64,000 nucleotides of DNA from Candidatus Moraniibacteriota bacterium (lineage in GTDB: Bacteria > Patescibacteriota > Minisyncoccia > Moranbacterales > UBA1568), in the NCBI GenBank assembly GCA_037441965.1, contig JBBIRD010000001.1, positions 2,255 to 66,254 on the forward strand, read 5' to 3'. Below, piece by piece: positions 35,724 to 58,181 of the stretch; position 1 is the first letter of the stretch; each line of letters begins with the position of its first letter. The translations under genes and the position numbers were made by a program. The notes beneath the pieces were generated by a model. It was given only the letters and a program-made list of their open reading frames with translations. It was not told where the DNA came from and ran no database searches.

Positions 35724-36572
35724 ATGGCACTCATATATGGAAAACCGATAGCAGATATGATTTCTGCAGATACAAAAAGAAAGATGGTCCTTTCTGGTAT
35801 AGTTCCTGGTTTAGCAGTGATTTTGGTGGGGGATGATGCATCATCACATCTGTATGTCAATCTCAAAGAAAAAGCAGCGCAGAATATCGGTGTTCATTTT
35901 GAGAAATATATTTTTTCAAAAGATGCCGATCAGAAAGTGATCGAAGAATGTATTGATACGCTTAATATACGAGAGGACATACACGGTATTATCGTGCAAC
36001 TCCCGCTTCCAGAAGGATTTGATACTGATGCAATTATTACTCGCATCGATCCGTCGAAAGATACAGATGGATTTCACAAAGAAACGGTAAAAAATTTCCT
36101 TTTAGGAGATAAAGAATCATGTCCTGTTTTTCCTTTAGCTATTCTTTCTCTTCTTCGGTCTGCAGGCGGATATCGTATGTTTGATAACGCAGTTGTTATT
36201 GTTAATTCTGTATTGATGGGAGAAGTGATGACACAAGCGCTTCTTCTTGAGGGATTACGAGCGGAATATATTTTGAGTAACGAATCAAAAGAGTCTATTA
36301 GAGAGAAAACAAAAGAAGCTCAGGTTATTGTTTCGGCTTCCGGGAAAGCAAATTTTATTACTGGTGATATGATTCAGGCGAATAGTATTATTATCGACGG
36401 AGGCATTAGTCATATTGAGAATAAGATTGTCGGTGATGTAGAGAGGTTTACAGTTGAGAATAAAGCACGATTCCTTTCACCTGTTCCAGGAGGAGTCGGA
36501 CCAGTTACTGTTGCAACACTTCTTGATCGTGTTACTGATATGGCTCTTCGCTCATTGACAAAGAATGATTGA
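35724..36572 (+). CDS. folD: Bifunctional methylenetetrahydrofolate dehydrogenase/cyclohydrolase
   Basis: It contains PGLAVILVGDDASSHLYVNLK and PVPGGVGPVTVATLL, both characteristic of FolD. Confidence 0.85.
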   Translation: MALIYGKPIADMISADTKRKMVLSGIVPGLAVILVGDDASSHLYVNLKEKAAQNIGVHFEKYIFSKDADQKVIEECIDTLNIREDIHGIIVQLPLPEGFDTDAIITRIDPSKDTDGFHKETVKNFLLGDKESCPVFPLAILSLLRSAGGYRMFDNAVVIVNSVLMGEVMTQALLLEGLRAEYILSNESKESIREKTKEAQVIVSASGKANFITGDMIQANSIIIDGGISHIENKIVGDVERFTVENKARFLSPVPGGVGPVTVATLLDRVTDMALRSLTKND

Positions 36573-36605
36573 TTCTTTATCATTCCTTCAAGAGAAAATA
36601 AAAAT

Positions 36606-36691
36606 GCCGAGGTGGTGGAATGGTAGACACACGGGACTCAAAATCCCGCGATAGCAATATCATGAGGGTTCAAGTCCCTCCCTCGGCACCA
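36606..36691 (+). tRNA. tRNA-Leu(CAA), CCA encoded
   Basis: The acceptor stem is GCCGAGG/CCTCGGC, the anticodon loop is CTCAAAA, there is a long variable arm, and the T-arm is GGTTCAAGTCC. Confidence 0.85.
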
Positions 36692-36961
36692 AGACAAAAC
36701 TTTTTGGCTTTTTGGGAACAGAACTTGGGTGGCACGGAGTGCTACTATGTTGTTTTTTCTCACAAATCCTCTTCGTTTAACAATCTCAAAAAAATCTTTG
36801 CTTTTAGATGTGTGTGCTCTTGATTCTTTCTAAAAATGAAAGGTTTTTTTCTTTGTGGTTTTGTCTTCCAAGTGTTCAAGTAGTGTGGCAGAACTTCAAT
36901 AGGAATAAGACAAAACGAAATTTGTTTTTCTGGAAAGAACTATAAAGTTACATTGTAAGTA

Positions 36962-36990
36962 TTGACAGAATAGATAATATGTGCTATTAT
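36962..36990 (+). promoter_or_regulatory. Promoter (TTGACA-17-TATTAT) for the small gene at 37105
   Basis: The -35 is at 36962-36967 and the -10 at 36985-36990. An AAGGAG Shine-Dalgarno sequence sits 7 nt before the ATG at 37105. Confidence 0.5.
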
Positions 36991-37104
36991 TGAACCTTAG
37001 TTTAAGGTGATGAAAATCCCTTAAATGAAAGAATGTTCTTTTTAAATTACCTCATACGTGAACGACTCATATCGAGTACGGCGTAGAGGTATAAGGAGAT
37101 TATA

Positions 37105-37305
37105 ATGCAACAAGTGATATTTCAATCGTTAGTCCTGTTCATCGTTTTGAACGGACTGGTGATCATAGTAGGCGGAACCTGCCTGGCGGGAAGGATGAAC
37201 CGCTGGTTAGGAACCGTTTTGCTTCGTGCGACGCGTGGTATCCTCAGCTGGTTTATCCGGCTGATAGCGGATATTCTGCGTGCGATCGCAGAAGGAATTC
37301 GATGA
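37105..37305 (+). CDS. Small (66 aa) membrane peptide, locally GC-rich (about 50% against about 36% background)
   Basis: It has a strong RBS, its own promoter and a downstream terminator. It has one TM helix and an amphipathic Arg-rich C-terminus. Confidence 0.5.
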   Translation: MQQVIFQSLVLFIVLNGLVIIVGGTCLAGRMNRWLGTVLLRATRGILSWFIRLIADILRAIAEGIR

Positions 37306-37317
37306 ATGCGTGAAAGC

Positions 37318-37362
37318 GAGTTGGGTCAGAGTACTCTTCTCGCTTTTTTCTTTGTGTATGTT
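37318..37362 (+). terminator. Terminator after the small gene
   Basis: An AAGCGAG...CTCGCTT stem containing an inner AGAGTACTCT palindrome is followed by TTTTTTCTTT. Confidence 0.5.
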
Positions 37363-37402
37363 TATTATAGTGCGGTAATTGCCCCTCTTATTATTTGAAT
37401 GA

Positions 37403-37431
37403 TTGATAGTTATTTGCTGATAGACTATAAT
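37403..37431 (+). promoter_or_regulatory. Promoter (TTGATA-17-TATAAT) upstream of parA
   Basis: The -35 is at 37403-37408 and the -10 at 37426-37431. Confidence 0.45.
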
Positions 37432-37476
37432 AGAAAAAGAGAGAAATAAGATTGTTTTATTTGCGGATTTTTTTAT

Positions 37477-38280
37477 ATGGCAAAAGTAATTGGATTTATC
37501 AATCAGAAGGGTGGGGTAGGAAAAACTACTTCGACAATTAATGTTGCAACATATTTAGCGGAAGCAGGGAAGAAGGTTCTTCTTGTTGATCTGGATCCTC
37601 AAGGGAATGCTTCTTCTGGTTTAGGGATCAACGCTAAGAGTCTTGAGAAAAATCTTTACCATGTGATGATTTTGGGTAATTTGCCTCAAGAAATTATTTT
37701 GCGTACGGAAGTAGAAGGTCTTCATATTATTCCTGCAGCACAAGATCTGGCTGGCGCAGAAGTTGAGATGGTGCATATTGAAGGGCGTGAGTTTCGTTTG
37801 TATCAGGCATTGCGTCATATTCAATCGTATTATGATTATATTTTGATCGATAGTCCGCCGTCGCTTGGTCTTCTTACTATCAATGGACTCGTAGCAAGCG
37901 ATGAAGTGGTGATACCAGTACAAACAGAATACTATGCTCTTGAAGGATTGTCGCAACTTTTAGGAACAATTGAACTTGTGCGTGAACATTTGCAACCAAA
38001 ATTAAGAATTATGGGAGCGCTTCTTACGATGTATGATAGACGCAATCGCCTTGCTCGTCAGGTGATTTCTGAAGTAAGAGCTCATTTTCCTGGACCAGTT
38101 TTTGAAACAGTTATACCGAGATCTGTCAGACTTGCAGAGGCGCCAAGTTTTGGAAAGTCAATACTTGACTTCGACGCTTTCTCTAAGGGCGCTCGTGCGT
38201 ACAAGAGTGTTGTTCGTGAGATATTAAGGCGTGATGCTGAGGAAGAAGAACAAAAAAAAATCAATGGAAGTAATGTATAA
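37477..38280 (+). CDS. parA: Chromosome partitioning ATPase ParA/Soj
   Basis: It has the deviant Walker A motif KGGVGKTT and LVDLDPQGNAS. Confidence 0.88.
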   Translation: MAKVIGFINQKGGVGKTTSTINVATYLAEAGKKVLLVDLDPQGNASSGLGINAKSLEKNLYHVMILGNLPQEIILRTEVEGLHIIPAAQDLAGAEVEMVHIEGREFRLYQALRHIQSYYDYILIDSPPSLGLLTINGLVASDEVVIPVQTEYYALEGLSQLLGTIELVREHLQPKLRIMGALLTMYDRRNRLARQVISEVRAHFPGPVFETVIPRSVRLAEAPSFGKSILDFDAFSKGARAYKSVVREILRRDAEEEEQKKINGSNV

Positions 38281-42244: not shown

Positions 42245-42624
42245 AGAGAGTACGAATTGAGAAAGTGCTTTGCAGTACTTTTTTCTTTTCTCAAGAATAT
42301 TCTGTTGATTTTCCTGTCAAGTTATTTGTCAAACAGTTCTGAAGAAATATGTGTTTCTCTTTGTAATGAAGAGGTTCTACAAAGAGCAATATGTATTTCC
42401 GCAGAAGTGCCTTAACAACTTATGTCTTTTTCAAAAGAATCGAAGATTATATGGTAGCGGAAAGTGATCAGATTTTTTTGAGATAGTCTAAATAGAAAAG
42501 GTCAAGCAAATCATAACGAGAAAAAACAGTGCGTCGAATGAGCAAACATTCTTCACTGTTAACCGATTGTCCGTGAGCGTCTTTAGTTTCGATTAGAGCG
42601 TTTGCGGACAAGAGAAAAAAAGAA

Positions 42625-45550
<2,926 letters not shown>

Positions 45551-45675
45551 TCTTTTTTTCTAACCTTGTTTTCTTTTCGCAAGAAAAGAATCGAAGTTAC
45601 GGTTAGCAGTGAAGAGTGCTTGTTAAAAGGGGAATCTTATTCTATTATAGATAGACAAATTTGGAGGGGAATGTT

Positions 45676-45787
45676 TCCGGTGCTTCTAGCGTTGTGGACA
45701 CACCTGATCCCATACCGAACTCAGCAGTTAAGCACTTCAGCACCGATGGTAGCCTTTAGTGGCAAGAGTAGGACAGTGCCGGGAACA
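45676..45787 (+). rRNA. rrf: 5S ribosomal RNA
   Basis: CCTGATCCCATACCGAACTCAGCAGTTAAGC...GATGGTAGC is characteristic of 5S rRNA, and it lies about 125 nt after the 23S. Confidence 0.88.
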
Positions 45788-56846: not shown

Positions 56847-58181
56847 TTACTTGCGTATAAGAGAGAGGATCTCTTTTTGTTTTTCTTCCATCATTTCTAT
56901 AGTTTTTGCTTCAAGATTGAGACGAAGGAGCGGTTCGGTATTGGATGGACGAACATTGAACCACCAATCAGGATAATCTACTTTGAGTCCGTCGAGCGTG
57001 CTGATTTGTCCATCGCTGTATTTCTCCTGCAACGCTTTAAGGATGATGTCTTTATCTGTTACTTCACTATTGATTTCTGCCGAGTGTGCATAGCGTCTAA
57101 GATCAGAAACGAGTTCAGATATTTTCTTTCCTGTTTCCGCCATTAGATTGAGAAGAAGAAAGGCAACGAGAGTACTAGCCTCAGCGAAAGAGTTTTCTTC
57201 GAAGTAATAATGTCCGGAAAGTTCACCAGCAAAAATAGCTCCGTCTGCGCGCATTTGTCTTTTGATAAAAGCATGCCCAACACGACATTCTTTGGCGGTG
57301 CCACCATTTTCTTCGATGACTTCGCGTACAGATCGAGAAGAACGGAGATCATAGAGAATAGTTGCACCTGGTTTTTTCTGAAGAATAATCTTCGCAACAA
57401 GTCCTGTAATGAGATCCATCGGAATAACCGTCCCTGTTTCATCAGTGAATCCGACGCGGTCAGCATCACCATCATAAGCAATACCGAGATCAGCGCCTAC
57501 TTCTTTTACTGTGGCACAGAGTTCATTAAGCGTTTCTGTTTTGAGAGGATTGGCTTCATGACACTGAAAGGGGTGAGTAAGGTCATTGTAGAGATTGACG
57601 ATGGTAAGATTGTCAGGAAATTTCTCGTACATTGGAAGTTCGAAAACGCCCATAGAATTGGCGGTATCGATAGCAACAGTAAATTTTTTCTCACCGAATT
57701 CTGCGAAAGAAGAAAACTCTGCATAATATTCTGGACGGATATCATAAGTTGTCATCGTTCCGGATACATCAGACTTTTCCAATGTATTCTGAAGGGCAAT
57801 ATCACGAATTTCACGAAGACCAGAATCTTCTCCGACTGGTAGAGCGCCTCGAAGAGCGATTTTGAGTCCATTGTATTCGATAGGATTGTGTGATGCAGTG
57901 AGGGAAACTACCGCATCGACATCGAGATGACCAGCAGAAAAATAGACCATCGGCGTACTGATCACGCCAAGATCGACGACATCGCACCCGCTATCCATAA
58001 CGCCACGAGCGAAACTTTCAAAAAGCGCTGGACTTGATGGACGAATGTCACGACCAATACCTATCTTTTTTGATTTGAGATATGCGACAACAGCACAGCC
58101 GATAGTATACACATCTTCTTCATTGATATCGGTTGGATACACACCACGAATATCGTAGGCTTTAAAAATTTCTTTTTTCAT
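56847..58181 (-). CDS. Phosphomannomutase/phosphoglucomutase (alpha-D-phosphohexomutase)
   Basis: It has the active-site phosphoserine loop TASHNP and the metal-binding DGDADR motif. The product is 444 aa. Confidence 0.85.
   Translation of the reverse strand: MKKEIFKAYDIRGVYPTDINEEDVYTIGCAVVAYLKSKKIGIGRDIRPSSPALFESFARGVMDSGCDVVDLGVISTPMVYFSAGHLDVDAVVSLTASHNPIEYNGLKIALRGALPVGEDSGLREIRDIALQNTLEKSDVSGTMTTYDIRPEYYAEFSSFAEFGEKKFTVAIDTANSMGVFELPMYEKFPDNLTIVNLYNDLTHPFQCHEANPLKTETLNELCATVKEVGADLGIAYDGDADRVGFTDETGTVIPMDLITGLVAKIILQKKPGATILYDLRSSRSVREVIEENGGTAKECRVGHAFIKRQMRADGAIFAGELSGHYYFEENSFAEASTLVAFLLLNLMAETGKKISELVSDLRRYAHSAEINSEVTDKDIILKALQEKYSDGQISTLDGLKVDYPDWWFNVRPSNTEPLLRLNLEAKTIEMMEEKQKEILSLIRK

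What the first reader, a model, noticed from the sequence alone, without database searches (positions are those of the whole stretch)
36962..37362. GC-rich 66-aa membrane-peptide gene with its own promoter, strong RBS and terminator, downstream of tRNA-Leu in a non-coding gap of about 800 bp
Between tRNA-Leu(CAA) and parA lies an unusually long intergenic stretch. It contains a compact transcription unit: TTGACA-17-TATTAT, then AAGGAG 7 nt before the ATG, then a terminator hairpin. The coding part is about 50% GC against about 36% background.

The product has one TM helix and an Arg-rich amphipathic tail, which resembles type I toxin-like or phage-derived small membrane peptides. Its tRNA-adjacent position and compositional anomaly suggest horizontally acquired DNA or a remnant of an integrated element. 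The GC-rich stretch could alternatively be a structured ncRNA.
Basis: seen in the sequence. Interest (0 to 1): 0.5.

Follow-up and report, generated by a model that had tools for sequence, protein, structure and literature searches.

The report
Rare small membrane-protein gene module
The 66-codon ORF is a real gene for a one-helix membrane protein of a very rare, unnamed family; it sits with its own promoter, self-folding leader and terminator as an insertion between tRNA-Leu and parA of a Moranbacteria (CPR) genome, and whether it is toxin-like is untested.

Summary
A near-consensus promoter (36962-36990), AAGGAG 6 nt before the ATG, a 66-aa ORF (37105-37305), a terminator hairpin (37312-37347), and 50% GC against 38% are all present.

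The ORF is coding, not an ncRNA. An exhaustive HMMER scan plus profile searches found 11-12 small proteins (54-79 aa) sharing NG..I.GG...AGRLNRW. dN/dS is about 0.3, and conserved residues use several synonymous codons.

The family matches nothing in Pfam, NCBIfam, PHROGs, PADLOC or PDB, and has no phage hits. Promoter, proximal leader and terminator are homologous too, so the unit is a self-contained module (about 36938-37358). It is absent from this junction in the 64 of 80 Moranbacteria relatives whose contigs hold both the tRNA and parA.

GC-richness is a family trait (CDS 3-20 points above flanks). It goes with excess mRNA folding (window z = -3.9 against synonymous shuffles) and is not proof of recent transfer. 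In long-leader members an upstream anti-SD pairs with the SD, although host genes mostly lack SDs.

Best reading: a constitutively transcribed, translationally locked small membrane protein that works like a type I toxin mRNA. No antitoxin RNA was found and toxicity is untested. The ncRNA, phage-remnant and TatA readings are rejected.

The parts
36606..36691 (+). tRNA-Leu(CAA), the left neighbour. It has its own promoter-like site (36555-36583) and a terminator-like hairpin (36728-36746).
   Evidence: ARAGORN, Rfam and the promoter/terminator scan.
36788..36895 (+). AT-rich non-coding element downstream of the tRNA. It is conserved in relatives L061 and L018 and is not part of the module.
   Evidence: blastn gives 76% identity over 107 nt to L061, where it lies at the same distance 3' of the tRNA. 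It gives 80% over 51 nt to both arms of the L018 inverted repeat.
36938..37358 (+). Whole module, meaning the extent of DNA homology to the homologous unit in L093: promoter, leader, CDS and terminator.
   Evidence: Pairwise alignment of the window against L093. The unit is absent between the tRNA terminator and the parA promoter in the same-orientation relatives L012, L015, L019, L022 and L029.
36962..36990 (+). Sigma-70-type promoter TTGACA-17-TATTAT (TGc before the -10). The inferred start of transcription is near 36997.
   Evidence: Promoter scan. The same TTGACA-17-TATTAT lies upstream of the homologues in L087, L090, L093 and L095. The transcription start is inferred, not measured.
37000..37026 (+). 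5'-terminal hairpin of the leader.
   Evidence: RNAfold.
37033..37103 (+). Leader domain in which an upstream anti-SD strand (CUUUUUA..UUACCUC, 37037-37053) pairs with GAGGUAUAAGGAG. It encloses the small hairpin ACUCauaucGAGU, which is homologous to P2a of the relatives.
   Evidence: The leader fold has z = -4.6. P(unpaired) of GGAG is at most 0.02. The covariance model built from relatives aligns only this domain, and weakly (6 bits, E = 0.07). The sequence aligns with L093.
37093..37098 (+). Shine-Dalgarno-like AAGGAG, 6 nt before the ATG.
   Evidence: GAGGAG or AGGAGG is conserved at this position in every homologue.
37105..37305 (+). CDS of the 66-aa protein: TM helix at about residues 4-22, GG hinge, conserved AGRMNRW, Arg-rich amphipathic C-terminal helices.
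   Evidence: ORF list. Homologues were found. dN/dS is 0.27-0.32 and the codon alignment supports coding. AlphaFold predicts helices 2-22 and 28-65 at low confidence, pLDDT 64.
37312..37354 (+). Intrinsic terminator: hairpin 37312-37347 followed by a T-run.
   Evidence: RNAfold gives -16.5 kcal/mol, z = -2.9. It is similar to the terminator of the L093 unit.
37403..37431 (+). parA promoter (TTGATA-17-TATAAT), conserved in relatives. It marks the right edge of the inserted DNA.
   Evidence: Promoter scan and alignment with L012, L015, L019 and L022.

Best explanation
SHOWN
- The ORF 37105-37305 is a genuine protein-coding gene. It belongs to a very rare, so far unnamed family of small proteins of 64-79 aa, plus one 54-aa truncated gene call.
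- Family members share an N-terminal TM helix with a mid-helix Asn-Gly, a Gly-Gly(-Pro) hinge, the motif AGR(L/M)N(R/Q)W, and Arg-rich amphipathic helices.
- The gene travels as a self-contained module: a near-consensus sigma-70 promoter, a long structured leader, a GC-rich and unusually structured CDS, and an intrinsic terminator.
- In this Moranbacteria (CPR) genome the module is extra DNA between the tRNA-Leu region and the conserved parA promoter.

INFERRED
- The promoter drives constitutive transcription.
- The primary transcript is translated poorly, because the SD and the start region are locked in a leader helix by an upstream anti-SD and the CDS itself is strongly folded.
- When translated, the protein inserts N-out/C-in (positive-inside rule), with its cationic amphipathic tail lying on the cytoplasmic face of the membrane.
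- The most likely mode of action is that of a membrane-active, type-I-toxin-like peptide whose synthesis is gated in cis. The gate would open on RNA processing, refolding or an unidentified trans factor.

MY PROBABILITIES
- Coding gene of a real family: above 0.95.
- Lineage-specific insertion of an autonomous module: about 0.8.
- Translation gated by the leader structure: about 0.6.
- Product is toxin-like or membrane-perturbing: about 0.35.

The single confidence figure given for this explanation (0.45) is for the whole chain, shown and inferred parts together.
For: Coding and family
- phmmer over 1.84 G representative proteins gives two hits of the same size (E = 1.4e-4 and 7.6e-4).
- Profile searches extend this to 11 clusters, plus L097.
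- P0006 aligns to the window ORF over its full length at 47% identity.
- dN/dS is 0.27-0.32 for the unsaturated pairs.
- The conserved Ala-Gly-Arg columns each use 4 different codons.

Module
- The TTGACA-17-TATTAT promoter is shared with L087, L090, L093 and L095.
- Homology between the window and L093 runs from the promoter to the terminator tail.

Insertion
- No blastn or tblastn trace of the unit was found in the 80 relatives' loci. In the 64 loci that hold both genes, the tRNA-Leu to parA spacing is usually 46-330 nt (13 are longer, up to 2886 nt in L023), against 785 nt here.
- Other islands occupy the same junction in L018 and L023.

Translational lock
- The leader fold has z = -4.6 and the whole mRNA z = -6.2.
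- GGAG is predicted unpaired with P <= 0.02 in the window and <= 0.23 in L083, L087, L093, L095 and L097.
- In the relatives the anti-SD:SD helix closes a three-way junction. 94% of cells are paired and 13 pairs show compensatory changes; 0 of 500 shuffles reach this, and slid controls give 35-49%.

Structured CDS
- All 10 family CDSs fold better than synonymous-codon shuffles (window z = -3.9, family mean about -2.1).
- 22 control CDS pieces from the window give mean -0.07, minimum -2.07.

Membrane protein
- Kyte-Doolittle mean 2.72 over residues 4-22, C-terminal part net +5, muH 0.80. The same pattern holds in all members tested.

Toxin-like traits (features listed in PMC8309996)
- TM helix, cationic C-terminus, and cis sequestration of the RBS.
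- A patchy, autonomous distribution: next to tRNA-Leu genes in the window and L082, and next to a DDE transposase in L094.
- One decayed copy that has lost its TM segment (L090).
Against: - No antisense or divergent promoter overlapping the unit was found in the window or in L087, L093 or L095. In L087 there is no room for a separate upstream sRNA gene.
- The protein is longer than typical membrane type I toxins, which are under 60 aa.
- It is single-copy in the window.
- In one clade it keeps a stable position upstream of an ECF sigma/DUF5667 pair. That fits a chromosomal housekeeping or stress gene as well.
- The covariance model of the relatives' leader does not find the window's leader with default filters. 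It finds only 6 bits with filters off, so the lock in the window rests on single-sequence folding.
- L082 has a short, open leader.
- All structures, the transcription start and the topology are predictions. The 16S 3' end is not in the window, so whether AAGGAG can act as an SD in this organism is unknown. PMC9297842 detected the anti-SD motif in only 48% of Parcubacteria.
Confidence: 0.45

Rival explanations
1. It is a benign small membrane protein, either an accessory or regulatory subunit or an envelope-stress factor. It might act with the ECF sigma/DUF5667 pair found next to it in one clade. The structured leader would then be an ordinary post-transcriptional control, for example a thermosensor-like or stress-responsive one.
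For: - The synteny small gene -> ECF sigma (218-225 aa) -> DUF5667 protein (458 aa) is conserved in L081, L086, L087/L088 and L090.
- The gene is under purifying selection and has a sharply conserved motif.
- It is single-copy.
- No antitoxin was found.
- The window's U-rich anti-SD pairs with AAGGAG through G-U pairs. That recalls fourU-type thermometers (my own knowledge).
Against: - The sigma-linked loci are close relatives of one another, with the same ABC transporter upstream, so they count as one evolutionary observation.
- The window, L082, L091, L094 and L097 have other neighbours.
- tblastn of the L087 genes (which include the ECF sigma and DUF5667 genes) found no match in the 64-kb window or the 80 relatives' loci.
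- The gene's own promoter is sigma-70 type, not ECF type.
- The gene is absent from the parA region of all 80 relatives, so it is not a core function tied to that locus.
Confidence: 0.3
2. It is a complete type I toxin-antitoxin locus whose antisense or trans-acting RNA antitoxin I failed to detect.
For: The toxin-side features are all present: a TM peptide with a cationic C-terminus, a strong promoter, a sequestered SD, a highly structured mRNA, and a patchy distribution near tRNA and IS sequences. There is a weak divergent promoter-like site at 36968->36939 on the minus strand, matching 9 of 12 positions. The upstream stretch 36834-36854 is 76% identical to leader positions 37023-37043 (family D2), so a minus-strand RNA from there would be partly complementary to the anti-SD region.
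Against: The 9/12 promoter match and the 16-of-21 AT-rich complementarity are at chance level. Neither is conserved in the homologous loci. In L087 the upstream gene ends 33 nt before the -35 hexamer. No minus-strand promoter within the transcribed region recurs across loci.
Confidence: 0.1
3. It is a remnant of a phage or integrated element at the tRNA gene, for example a holin-like gene.
For: The unit is adjacent to a tRNA and is extra DNA relative to relatives. A 13-nt perfect direct repeat, TTTTTTCTTTGTG, lies at 36845 and 37344. It is unique in the window, with P about 0.01 in simulations.
Against: There are no hits in PHROGs or PADLOC, in phage, plasmid or E. coli DNA, or in viral contigs with the peptide or the family profile. 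There is no integrase and no duplicated tRNA 3' end. The first copy of the 13-mer lies inside the tRNA-downstream element shared with L061, so it is not a clean target-site duplication. The homologues sit in ordinary chromosomal contexts.
Confidence: 0.05
4. It is a structured non-coding RNA and the ORF is fortuitous.
For: The stretch is GC-rich within a long AT-rich intergenic region. The fold has z = -6.2 on the plus strand and -4.4 on the minus strand. Codon usage is atypical, with GC3 0.56. An SD is unusual for this genome.
Against: Homologues conserve the reading frame, the length and the amino-acid motif while varying freely at synonymous sites. The start codon and N-terminus (MQQ/MEQ) are conserved. 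Rfam finds nothing. The hairpins inside the CDS are not in the same register in different members, as read from the sequences.
Confidence: 0.03
5. It is a divergent TatA/E-like translocase subunit (TM helix, Gly hinge, amphipathic helix).
For: The architecture is similar, and a local GP..L..GR.L pattern can be seen by eye.
Against: hhalign of the family against a TatA/E/B/Ad/Ay/Ac alignment gives a probability of 0.7%. There is no Pfam hit for any member, no PDB sequence hit and no PDB fold hit.
Confidence: 0.02

Closest known systems
[quoted passage not shown]
   Same: The product is a small hydrophobic peptide with one predicted TM helix and a cationic C-terminal part. The gene is a stand-alone unit in an intergenic region. 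The transcript is highly structured and a cis element pairs with the SD, so the primary transcript should be poorly translated (features as listed in PMC8309996).
   Different: There is no sequence similarity to any described toxin family. Members are 64-79 aa rather than under 60. No antitoxin RNA or antisense promoter was detected. Toxicity is untested. In one clade the gene has a stable chromosomal position next to an ECF sigma operon.
SD-sequestering leaders and RNA thermometers (fourU, ROSE)
   Same: An upstream pyrimidine-rich strand pairs with the SD. In the window the strand is U-rich and uses G-U pairs.
   Different: In the relatives the helix closes a 130-170-nt three-way junction with a long, hypervariable hairpin. 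That is far larger than known thermometers. There is no Rfam match, and temperature response is untested.
Regulatory small membrane proteins of bacteria (for example AcrZ, MgtS; review PMC12648545, listed but not read)
   Same: The size class, the single TM helix and the cytoplasmic amphipathic tail are shared.
   Different: There is no homology, no identified partner complex, and an unusually elaborate mRNA structure.
TatA/TatE
   Same: The layout is shared: TM helix, glycine hinge, amphipathic helix.
   Different: The profile comparison is negative, and the family's motifs (mid-helix NG, AGRLNRW) are not Tat motifs.

Membership tests
Type I toxin-antitoxin system (membrane toxin class) | Small hydrophobic peptide with a predicted alpha-helical TM domain and cationic residues towards the C-terminus. 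| tested here: met
   Kyte-Doolittle 19-residue mean is 2.72 for residues 4-22. The C-terminal part has net charge +5. The same pattern holds in four other members. AlphaFold predicts helices 2-22 and 28-65 at low confidence.
Type I toxin-antitoxin system (membrane toxin class) | Length generally under 60 aa. | tested here: not met
   The window protein is 66 aa and the family spans 64-79 aa. This is a soft criterion (PMC8309996).
Type I toxin-antitoxin system (membrane toxin class) | A cis-encoded mRNA element sequesters the ribosome binding site. | tested here: met
   This is predicted only. P(unpaired) of GGAG is at most 0.02 in the window and at most 0.23 in five relatives. The anti-SD:SD helix is part of a covarying three-way junction in the relatives.
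Type I toxin-antitoxin system (membrane toxin class) | An antisense (cis) or nearby trans-encoded small RNA antitoxin. | tested here: inconclusive
   No conserved minus-strand promoter overlaps the unit in the window, L087, L093 or L095. A consensus scan cannot exclude a weak or non-canonical promoter, so RNA-seq is needed.
Type I toxin-antitoxin system (membrane toxin class) | Growth arrest or killing on ectopic expression. | not testable with these tools
   This needs an experiment.
Known protein families (Pfam, NCBIfam, PHROGs, PADLOC, PDB) | A significant profile or sequence match. | tested here: not met
   No hit for the window protein. No hit for the family members scanned singly or as a profile. 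Foldseek against the PDB finds nothing.
The new family itself (NG...GG...AGRLNRW small proteins) | Length of 64-79 aa; an N-terminal TM helix with N-G in mid-helix; a GG(P) hinge; A-G-R-(L/M)-N-(R/Q)-W; an Arg-rich amphipathic C-terminus. | tested here: met
   Alignment A4: G17, G24, A28 and W34 are invariant. N16, N32 and R33 are conserved in at least 90% of members. E = 1.4e-4 against the whole 1.84 G library. 47% identity to P0006 over the full length.
Leader three-way junction of the family (model R1) | P0 (anti-SD:SD) closing helix, a long P1 hairpin, and a P2/P2a domain. | tested here: inconclusive
   Relatives score 118-140 bits, and the truncated leaders of L081 and L086 are recovered. 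The window scores nothing with default filters. With filters off it scores 6 bits (E = 0.07), and only P2/P2a and the SD align. The window has its own anti-SD pairing and a different 5' hairpin.
Rfam structured RNAs | A covariance-model match at or near the gathering score. | tested here: not met
   Nothing reaches the gathering score. The best sub-threshold match in 36700-37480 is BTnc201 at 26 bits against a gathering score of 105, and it covers only the terminator hairpin.
TatA/E (PF02416) | Profile similarity to the Tat TM-hinge-amphipathic-helix module. | tested here: not met
   hhalign gives a probability of 0.7% and there is no Pfam hit.
Prophage or integrative element at a tRNA | An integrase, an att duplication of the tRNA 3' end, and phage homologues. 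| tested here: not met
   There is no integrase ORF in the gap, no tRNA-end repeat, and no viral, phage or plasmid match.

The most novel reading that the evidence does not exclude
This would be a CPR-specific, antitoxin-less 'type I-like' module. A membrane-active small protein would be controlled entirely in cis by a covarying three-way-junction leader that masks a canonical SD, in bacteria whose own genes almost never use an SD. The hypervariable but always base-paired P1 hairpin, and in L097 an upstream hammerhead-like ribozyme, would serve as the processing or trigger site that unlocks translation. That would amount to a new class of self-gated toxin or stress-effector mRNA, and a handle on how SD-poor Parcubacteria use the SD selectively.
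Probability: 0.15. Interest if true: 0.65.

Novelty: new member of a known kind. Interest (0 to 1): 0.4.

Why it matters
Small membrane proteins are badly under-annotated, and almost nothing is known about them in CPR/Patescibacteria. This one defines a new family: about a dozen clusters among 5.8 billion proteins, none annotated.

The family has three unusual traits that hold across its members:
- The CDS is much GC-richer and more strongly folded than its surroundings.
- The leader in the closer relatives covaries and pairs with the SD.
- A canonical SD is present in genomes that otherwise lack SDs.

If the protein is toxin-like, it would be (to my knowledge) the first type-I-like module described for CPR bacteria, and an example of purely cis-gated toxin synthesis. 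If it is benign, it is still a clean case for studying selective SD use and mRNA-structure control in SD-poor bacteria.

It is also a practical caution. A local GC spike next to a tRNA need not mean recent horizontal transfer.

Tried and rejected
Searches that found nothing
- A word-indexed protein search with the single peptide gave no hit at E <= 10. Only the exhaustive HMMER scan found relatives.
- Exact look-ups of the peptide and of ParA found nothing, so this genome is not in the collection.
- Peptide-pattern scans of viral and metagenome contigs with the single sequence found nothing. With the family alignment, one new metagenome locus turned up (L097) and no viral locus.
- blastn of 36950-37400 against E. 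coli genomes, plasmids and phages gave no match. I ran this because the codon choice looked enterobacterial and there is an EcoRI site near the stop codon. No vector or contaminant signal appeared.
- Pfam, NCBIfam, PHROGs, PADLOC, PDB sequence searches and Foldseek all found nothing.
- Rfam at gathering score and at E <= 10 gave only chance-level matches.
- Literature searches for DUF5667 and for the motif AGRLNRW returned no papers.
- Cluster look-up to get the taxonomy of the homologous contigs returned no names.

Ideas tested and dropped
- TatA-like idea: hhalign probability 0.7%.
- The 13-nt direct repeat as a target-site duplication: rejected, because the left copy lies inside a conserved tRNA-downstream element.
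- Analogous small TM ORFs at the same junction in the relatives: none in the close relatives. The few in distant loci showed no detectable similarity to the family.
- ECF sigma or DUF5667 homologues in the window: none.
- A covariance model of the relatives' leader does not convincingly recognise the window's leader.
- A possible second small ORF in the 3' trailer of the sigma-linked relatives: the reading frame is not conserved, so it is more likely RNA-level or DNA-level conservation (read).
Full report
WHAT IS IN THE WINDOW

The window is a compact, 38.1% GC genome piece. It carries a ribosomal-protein cluster and a 23S-5S rRNA pair. Its ParA is 71-89% identical to those of 80 species-level genomes, most of them labelled Candidatus Moranbacteria or Moraniibacteriota (Parcubacteria, CPR).

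The order of features around the finding is as follows.
- folD lies at 35724-36572.
- tRNA-Leu(CAA) lies at 36606-36691, with its own promoter-like site and a terminator-like hairpin.
- A 785-nt gap follows.
- parA (37477-38280) and parB come next.

- The promoter-like site is TTGACA-17-TATTAT at 36962-36990, matching 11 of 12 positions, with TG one base before the -10.
- AAGGAG is at 37093-37098, which is 6 nt (not 7) before the ATG.
- The 66-aa ORF is at 37105-37305.
- The terminator hairpin is at 37312-37347 (-16.5 kcal/mol) and is followed by a T-run.
- ORF GC is 50.2%. This is the highest 200-nt value outside the rRNA. GC3 is 0.56 against 0.31 +/- 0.08 for the window's long ORFs, and synonymous codon usage is about 2.7 sd below the gene mean.

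IS IT CODING OR A STRUCTURED RNA?

At first the ncRNA reading looked serious.
- No family library recognised the peptide.
- The word-indexed search of 5.8 G proteins found nothing.
- The transcript folds far better than shuffles: z = -6.2 on the plus strand and -4.4 on the minus strand.

The exhaustive HMMER scan of 1.84 G representatives then found two proteins of 68 and 64 aa, at E = 1.4e-4 and 7.6e-4 for the whole library. Two profile rounds raised this to 11 clusters of 54-79 aa. A back-translated pattern scan added locus L097.

All members share the same layout.
- A hydrophobic N-terminal helix with N-G in its middle.
- A GG(P) hinge.
- The motif A-G-R-(L/M)-N-(R/Q)-W.
- An Arg-rich amphipathic C-terminus.

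P0006 aligns with the window ORF end to end at 47% identity. For pairs that are not saturated, dN/dS is 0.27-0.32. In the codon alignment the conserved Ala, Gly and Arg columns each use four different codons. This settles that the ORF is translated and under purifying selection. Rfam gives nothing for the window gap or for the homologous loci.

THE UNIT IS A SELF-CONTAINED MODULE

The homologues carry the same promoter, TTGACA-17-TATTAT, in L087, L090, L093 and L095. All carry a GAGGAG- or AGGAGG-type SD 5-7 nt from the start. They also have strong terminators. Window and L093 DNA align from just upstream of the -35 to the terminator tail, which corresponds to about 36938-37358 in the window.

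The contexts differ between loci.
- In one clade (L081, L086, L087/L088, L090) the gene lies between a Liv-type ABC transporter and an ECF sigma/DUF5667 pair.
- In L082 it lies just upstream of a tRNA-Leu(UAG) gene.
- In L094 it lies next to a DDE transposase.
- In L091 and L097 it lies near TrmB-type regulators.
- In L090 the reading frame has lost the TM segment.

None of 2.9 M viral contigs encodes a member.

IT IS EXTRA DNA IN THIS GENOME

None of the 80 relatives has any trace of the unit near parA. Sixty-four of those loci hold both tRNA-Leu and parA. In the relatives with the same tRNA orientation (L012, L015, L019, L022, L029) the tRNA terminator is followed directly by the conserved parA promoter. 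In the window about 640 nt lie between them.

That extra DNA has two parts.
- The first is an AT-rich element (about 36788-36895), also found downstream of the tRNA in L061 and inside the inverted repeats of L018.
- The second is the module itself.

The junction is a hot spot.
- The tRNA is inverted relative to parA in most relatives.
- L018 carries a 3.1-kb island bounded by 335-nt inverted repeats.
- L023 carries a 2.9-kb island.

I found no integrase or att duplication. A 13-nt perfect direct repeat (36845 and 37344; P about 0.01) is not a clean target-site duplication, because its left copy lies inside the conserved tRNA-downstream element.

THE GC ANOMALY RE-READ

Every family member is GC-richer than its flanks.
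- Window: 50% against 38%.
- L082: 44% against 41%.
- The other loci: 58-67% against 44-51%.

The closest Moranbacteria relatives themselves have 44-55% GC. So the GC spike is a property of the gene family, and it may also fit a higher-GC donor lineage. It is not a stand-alone sign of recent transfer.

The spike goes with RNA structure. All ten CDSs tested fold more stably than versions with synonymous codons shuffled. The window gives z = -3.9, L094 -3.4, L082 -3.1, and the family mean is about -2.1. Twenty-two control CDS pieces from the window average -0.07, with a minimum of -2.07. The individual hairpins are not in the same register in different members, so the constraint seems to be 'be folded' rather than one fixed structure.

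THE LEADER

In six relatives the 130-170-nt leader forms a three-way junction.
- A closing helix is formed by an upstream UCUCC-type strand and the SD.
- A long P1 hairpin follows, whose sequence changes almost completely between loci while its pairing is kept.
- A P2/P2a domain completes the junction.

In this structure 94% of cells are paired and 13 of 41 pairs carry compensatory changes. No shuffle out of 500 reaches this, and slid controls give 35-49% paired. With six related sequences this is good but not overwhelming evidence.

A covariance model of the structure recovers the truncated leaders of L081 and L086. It does not find the window's leader with default filters. With filters off it gives 6 bits (E = 0.07), and only P2/P2a and the SD align at the correct place.

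The window's 108-nt leader is therefore a reduced variant. It has a different 5'-terminal hairpin (37000-37026) and its own anti-SD (CUUUUUA...UUACCUC, 37037-37053). The SD is predicted paired with P(unpaired) <= 0.02 in the window and <= 0.23 in L083, L087, L093, L095 and L097. L082 has a short, open leader.

AN SD IN AN SD-POOR GENOME

Only about 5 of 52 genes in the window have even a 4-nt SD at a usable distance. The genes of L087 and L090 look the same, apart from this gene and a few other small ones. A published survey detected the 16S anti-SD motif in only 48% of Parcubacteria (PMC9297842). The 16S gene is not in the window, so I cannot say whether AAGGAG works as an SD here or only as one strand of the lock.

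WHAT THE PROTEIN LOOKS LIKE

- Residues 4-22 have a mean Kyte-Doolittle value of 2.72.
- The N-terminal flank is 3 residues long.
- The C-terminal 44 residues carry net charge +5 and end in a strongly amphipathic helix (muH 0.80).
- The same pattern holds in the other members tested.

By the positive-inside rule this implies N-out/C-in. AlphaFold on the 11-sequence alignment gives two helices (2-22 and 28-65) at low confidence (pLDDT 64). Foldseek against the PDB finds nothing. A TatA-like reading, suggested by the TM-hinge-amphipathic layout, fails the profile comparison (probability 0.7%).

MECHANISM

Shown:
- It is a coding gene of a new family.
- The module is autonomous.
- It is an insertion at a variable junction.
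- The mRNA carries excess structure.

Inferred:
- Transcription is strong and constitutive.
- Translation is held down by the SD-masking leader and the folded CDS.
- The product is a single-pass membrane protein with a cationic amphipathic tail on the cytoplasmic face.

This combination is what membrane type I toxins and their mRNAs look like (PMC8309996). The patchy, mobile-looking distribution and one decayed copy fit that picture. Against it:
- No antitoxin RNA or conserved antisense promoter was found.
- The protein is somewhat long.
- One clade keeps the gene in a stable position beside an ECF sigma operon.

I therefore rate 'works like a type I toxin mRNA/peptide' at about 0.35. I rate a benign regulatory or stress-related small membrane protein at about 0.3. 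The phage-remnant, ncRNA and TatA readings are each at or below 0.05.

VERDICT

It is partly wrong: phage origin and ncRNA are not supported, and GC is not proof of foreign DNA. The finding is a new member of a known kind, namely small membrane proteins with translationally locked mRNAs. It has some unusual family-wide RNA features. Interest is moderate.

Noticed in passing
L097 3223-3277 (+): A hammerhead type III-like ribozyme motif (CUGAUGAG...CGAAA) lies about 25 nt upstream of the modelled leader (R1 match from 3301) of the small gene's homologue. It scores 36 bits, below Rfam's gathering score of 48.5, with E = 2.4e-6 in the local search. It occupies the place where other loci have the TTGACA-17-TATTAT promoter.
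   Followed up: partly
window, all genes (for example the starts listed); also L087 and L090: The genome is almost devoid of Shine-Dalgarno sequences. About 5 of 52 genes have a 4-nt match or better. The small gene, and a few other small genes in the relatives, carry canonical SDs. The 16S 3' end is not in the window.
   Followed up: partly
L018 1-335 and 3482-3816: 335-nt inverted repeats, 98% complementary, bracket a 3.1-kb island just upstream of parA. The island encodes an XRE-type HTH protein, zinc-ribbon membrane proteins and a trypsin-like protease. It could be an invertible or mobile segment. L023 has a related 2.9-kb island between tRNA-Leu and parA.
   Followed up: partly
window 36606-36691 against L001-L080: tRNA-Leu(CAA) lies on the strand opposite to parA in most relatives. 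It lies on the same strand in the window and in L012, L015, L019, L022, L023 and L029. The tRNA and about 200 nt downstream of it behave as an invertible block. An 11-nt direct repeat, GAATGATTGAT, sits at 36563 and 37397.
   Followed up: partly
window 36845-36857 and 37344-37356: A perfect 13-nt direct repeat, TTTTTTCTTTGTG, occurs only at these two places in the window. The copies are 499 nt apart, and P is about 0.01 in simulations. It may be a recombination footprint or two related terminator tails. It is not a clean target-site duplication.
   Followed up: yes
L090 3627-3818: This homologue (P0007, from NCBI MAG GCA_043717945.1) has lost the TM-helix segment in frame. It reads MEQGFWTVMLGGSAAAGRLNRW... 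and is probably a decaying copy.
   Followed up: partly
L081 294-420; L083 1158-1290; L086 237-350; L087 5724-5900; L091 5191-5330; L094 1681-1790: The 3' trailers between the stop codon and the terminator are conserved. They contain two hairpins with compensatory changes and a shared CUUUAUC motif. The reading frames are not conserved, so the conservation is probably at the RNA level. The window lacks this trailer.
   Followed up: partly
L082 about 100-200 and about 745-845: Two copies of a GC-rich element of about 80 nt are embedded in tRNA 3'-half-like sequences (T-arm and acceptor end). One copy lies just downstream of the real tRNA-Leu(UAG) and repeats its 3' end (…CTCTCTCGCGCACA). This suggests past integration events or interrupted tRNA pseudogenes.
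   Followed up: no
window 42620-45784: The 23S and 5S rRNA genes are not preceded by a 16S gene. An 845-aa ORF ends about 600 nt upstream. The rRNA operon is therefore unlinked, which to my knowledge is common in CPR genomes.
   Followed up: no
window about 341-540 and about 57821-58040: These are the only other 200-nt stretches outside the rRNA that reach 50% GC. Both fall inside long ORFs (17-757 on the plus strand and 56847-58181 on the minus strand).
   Followed up: no
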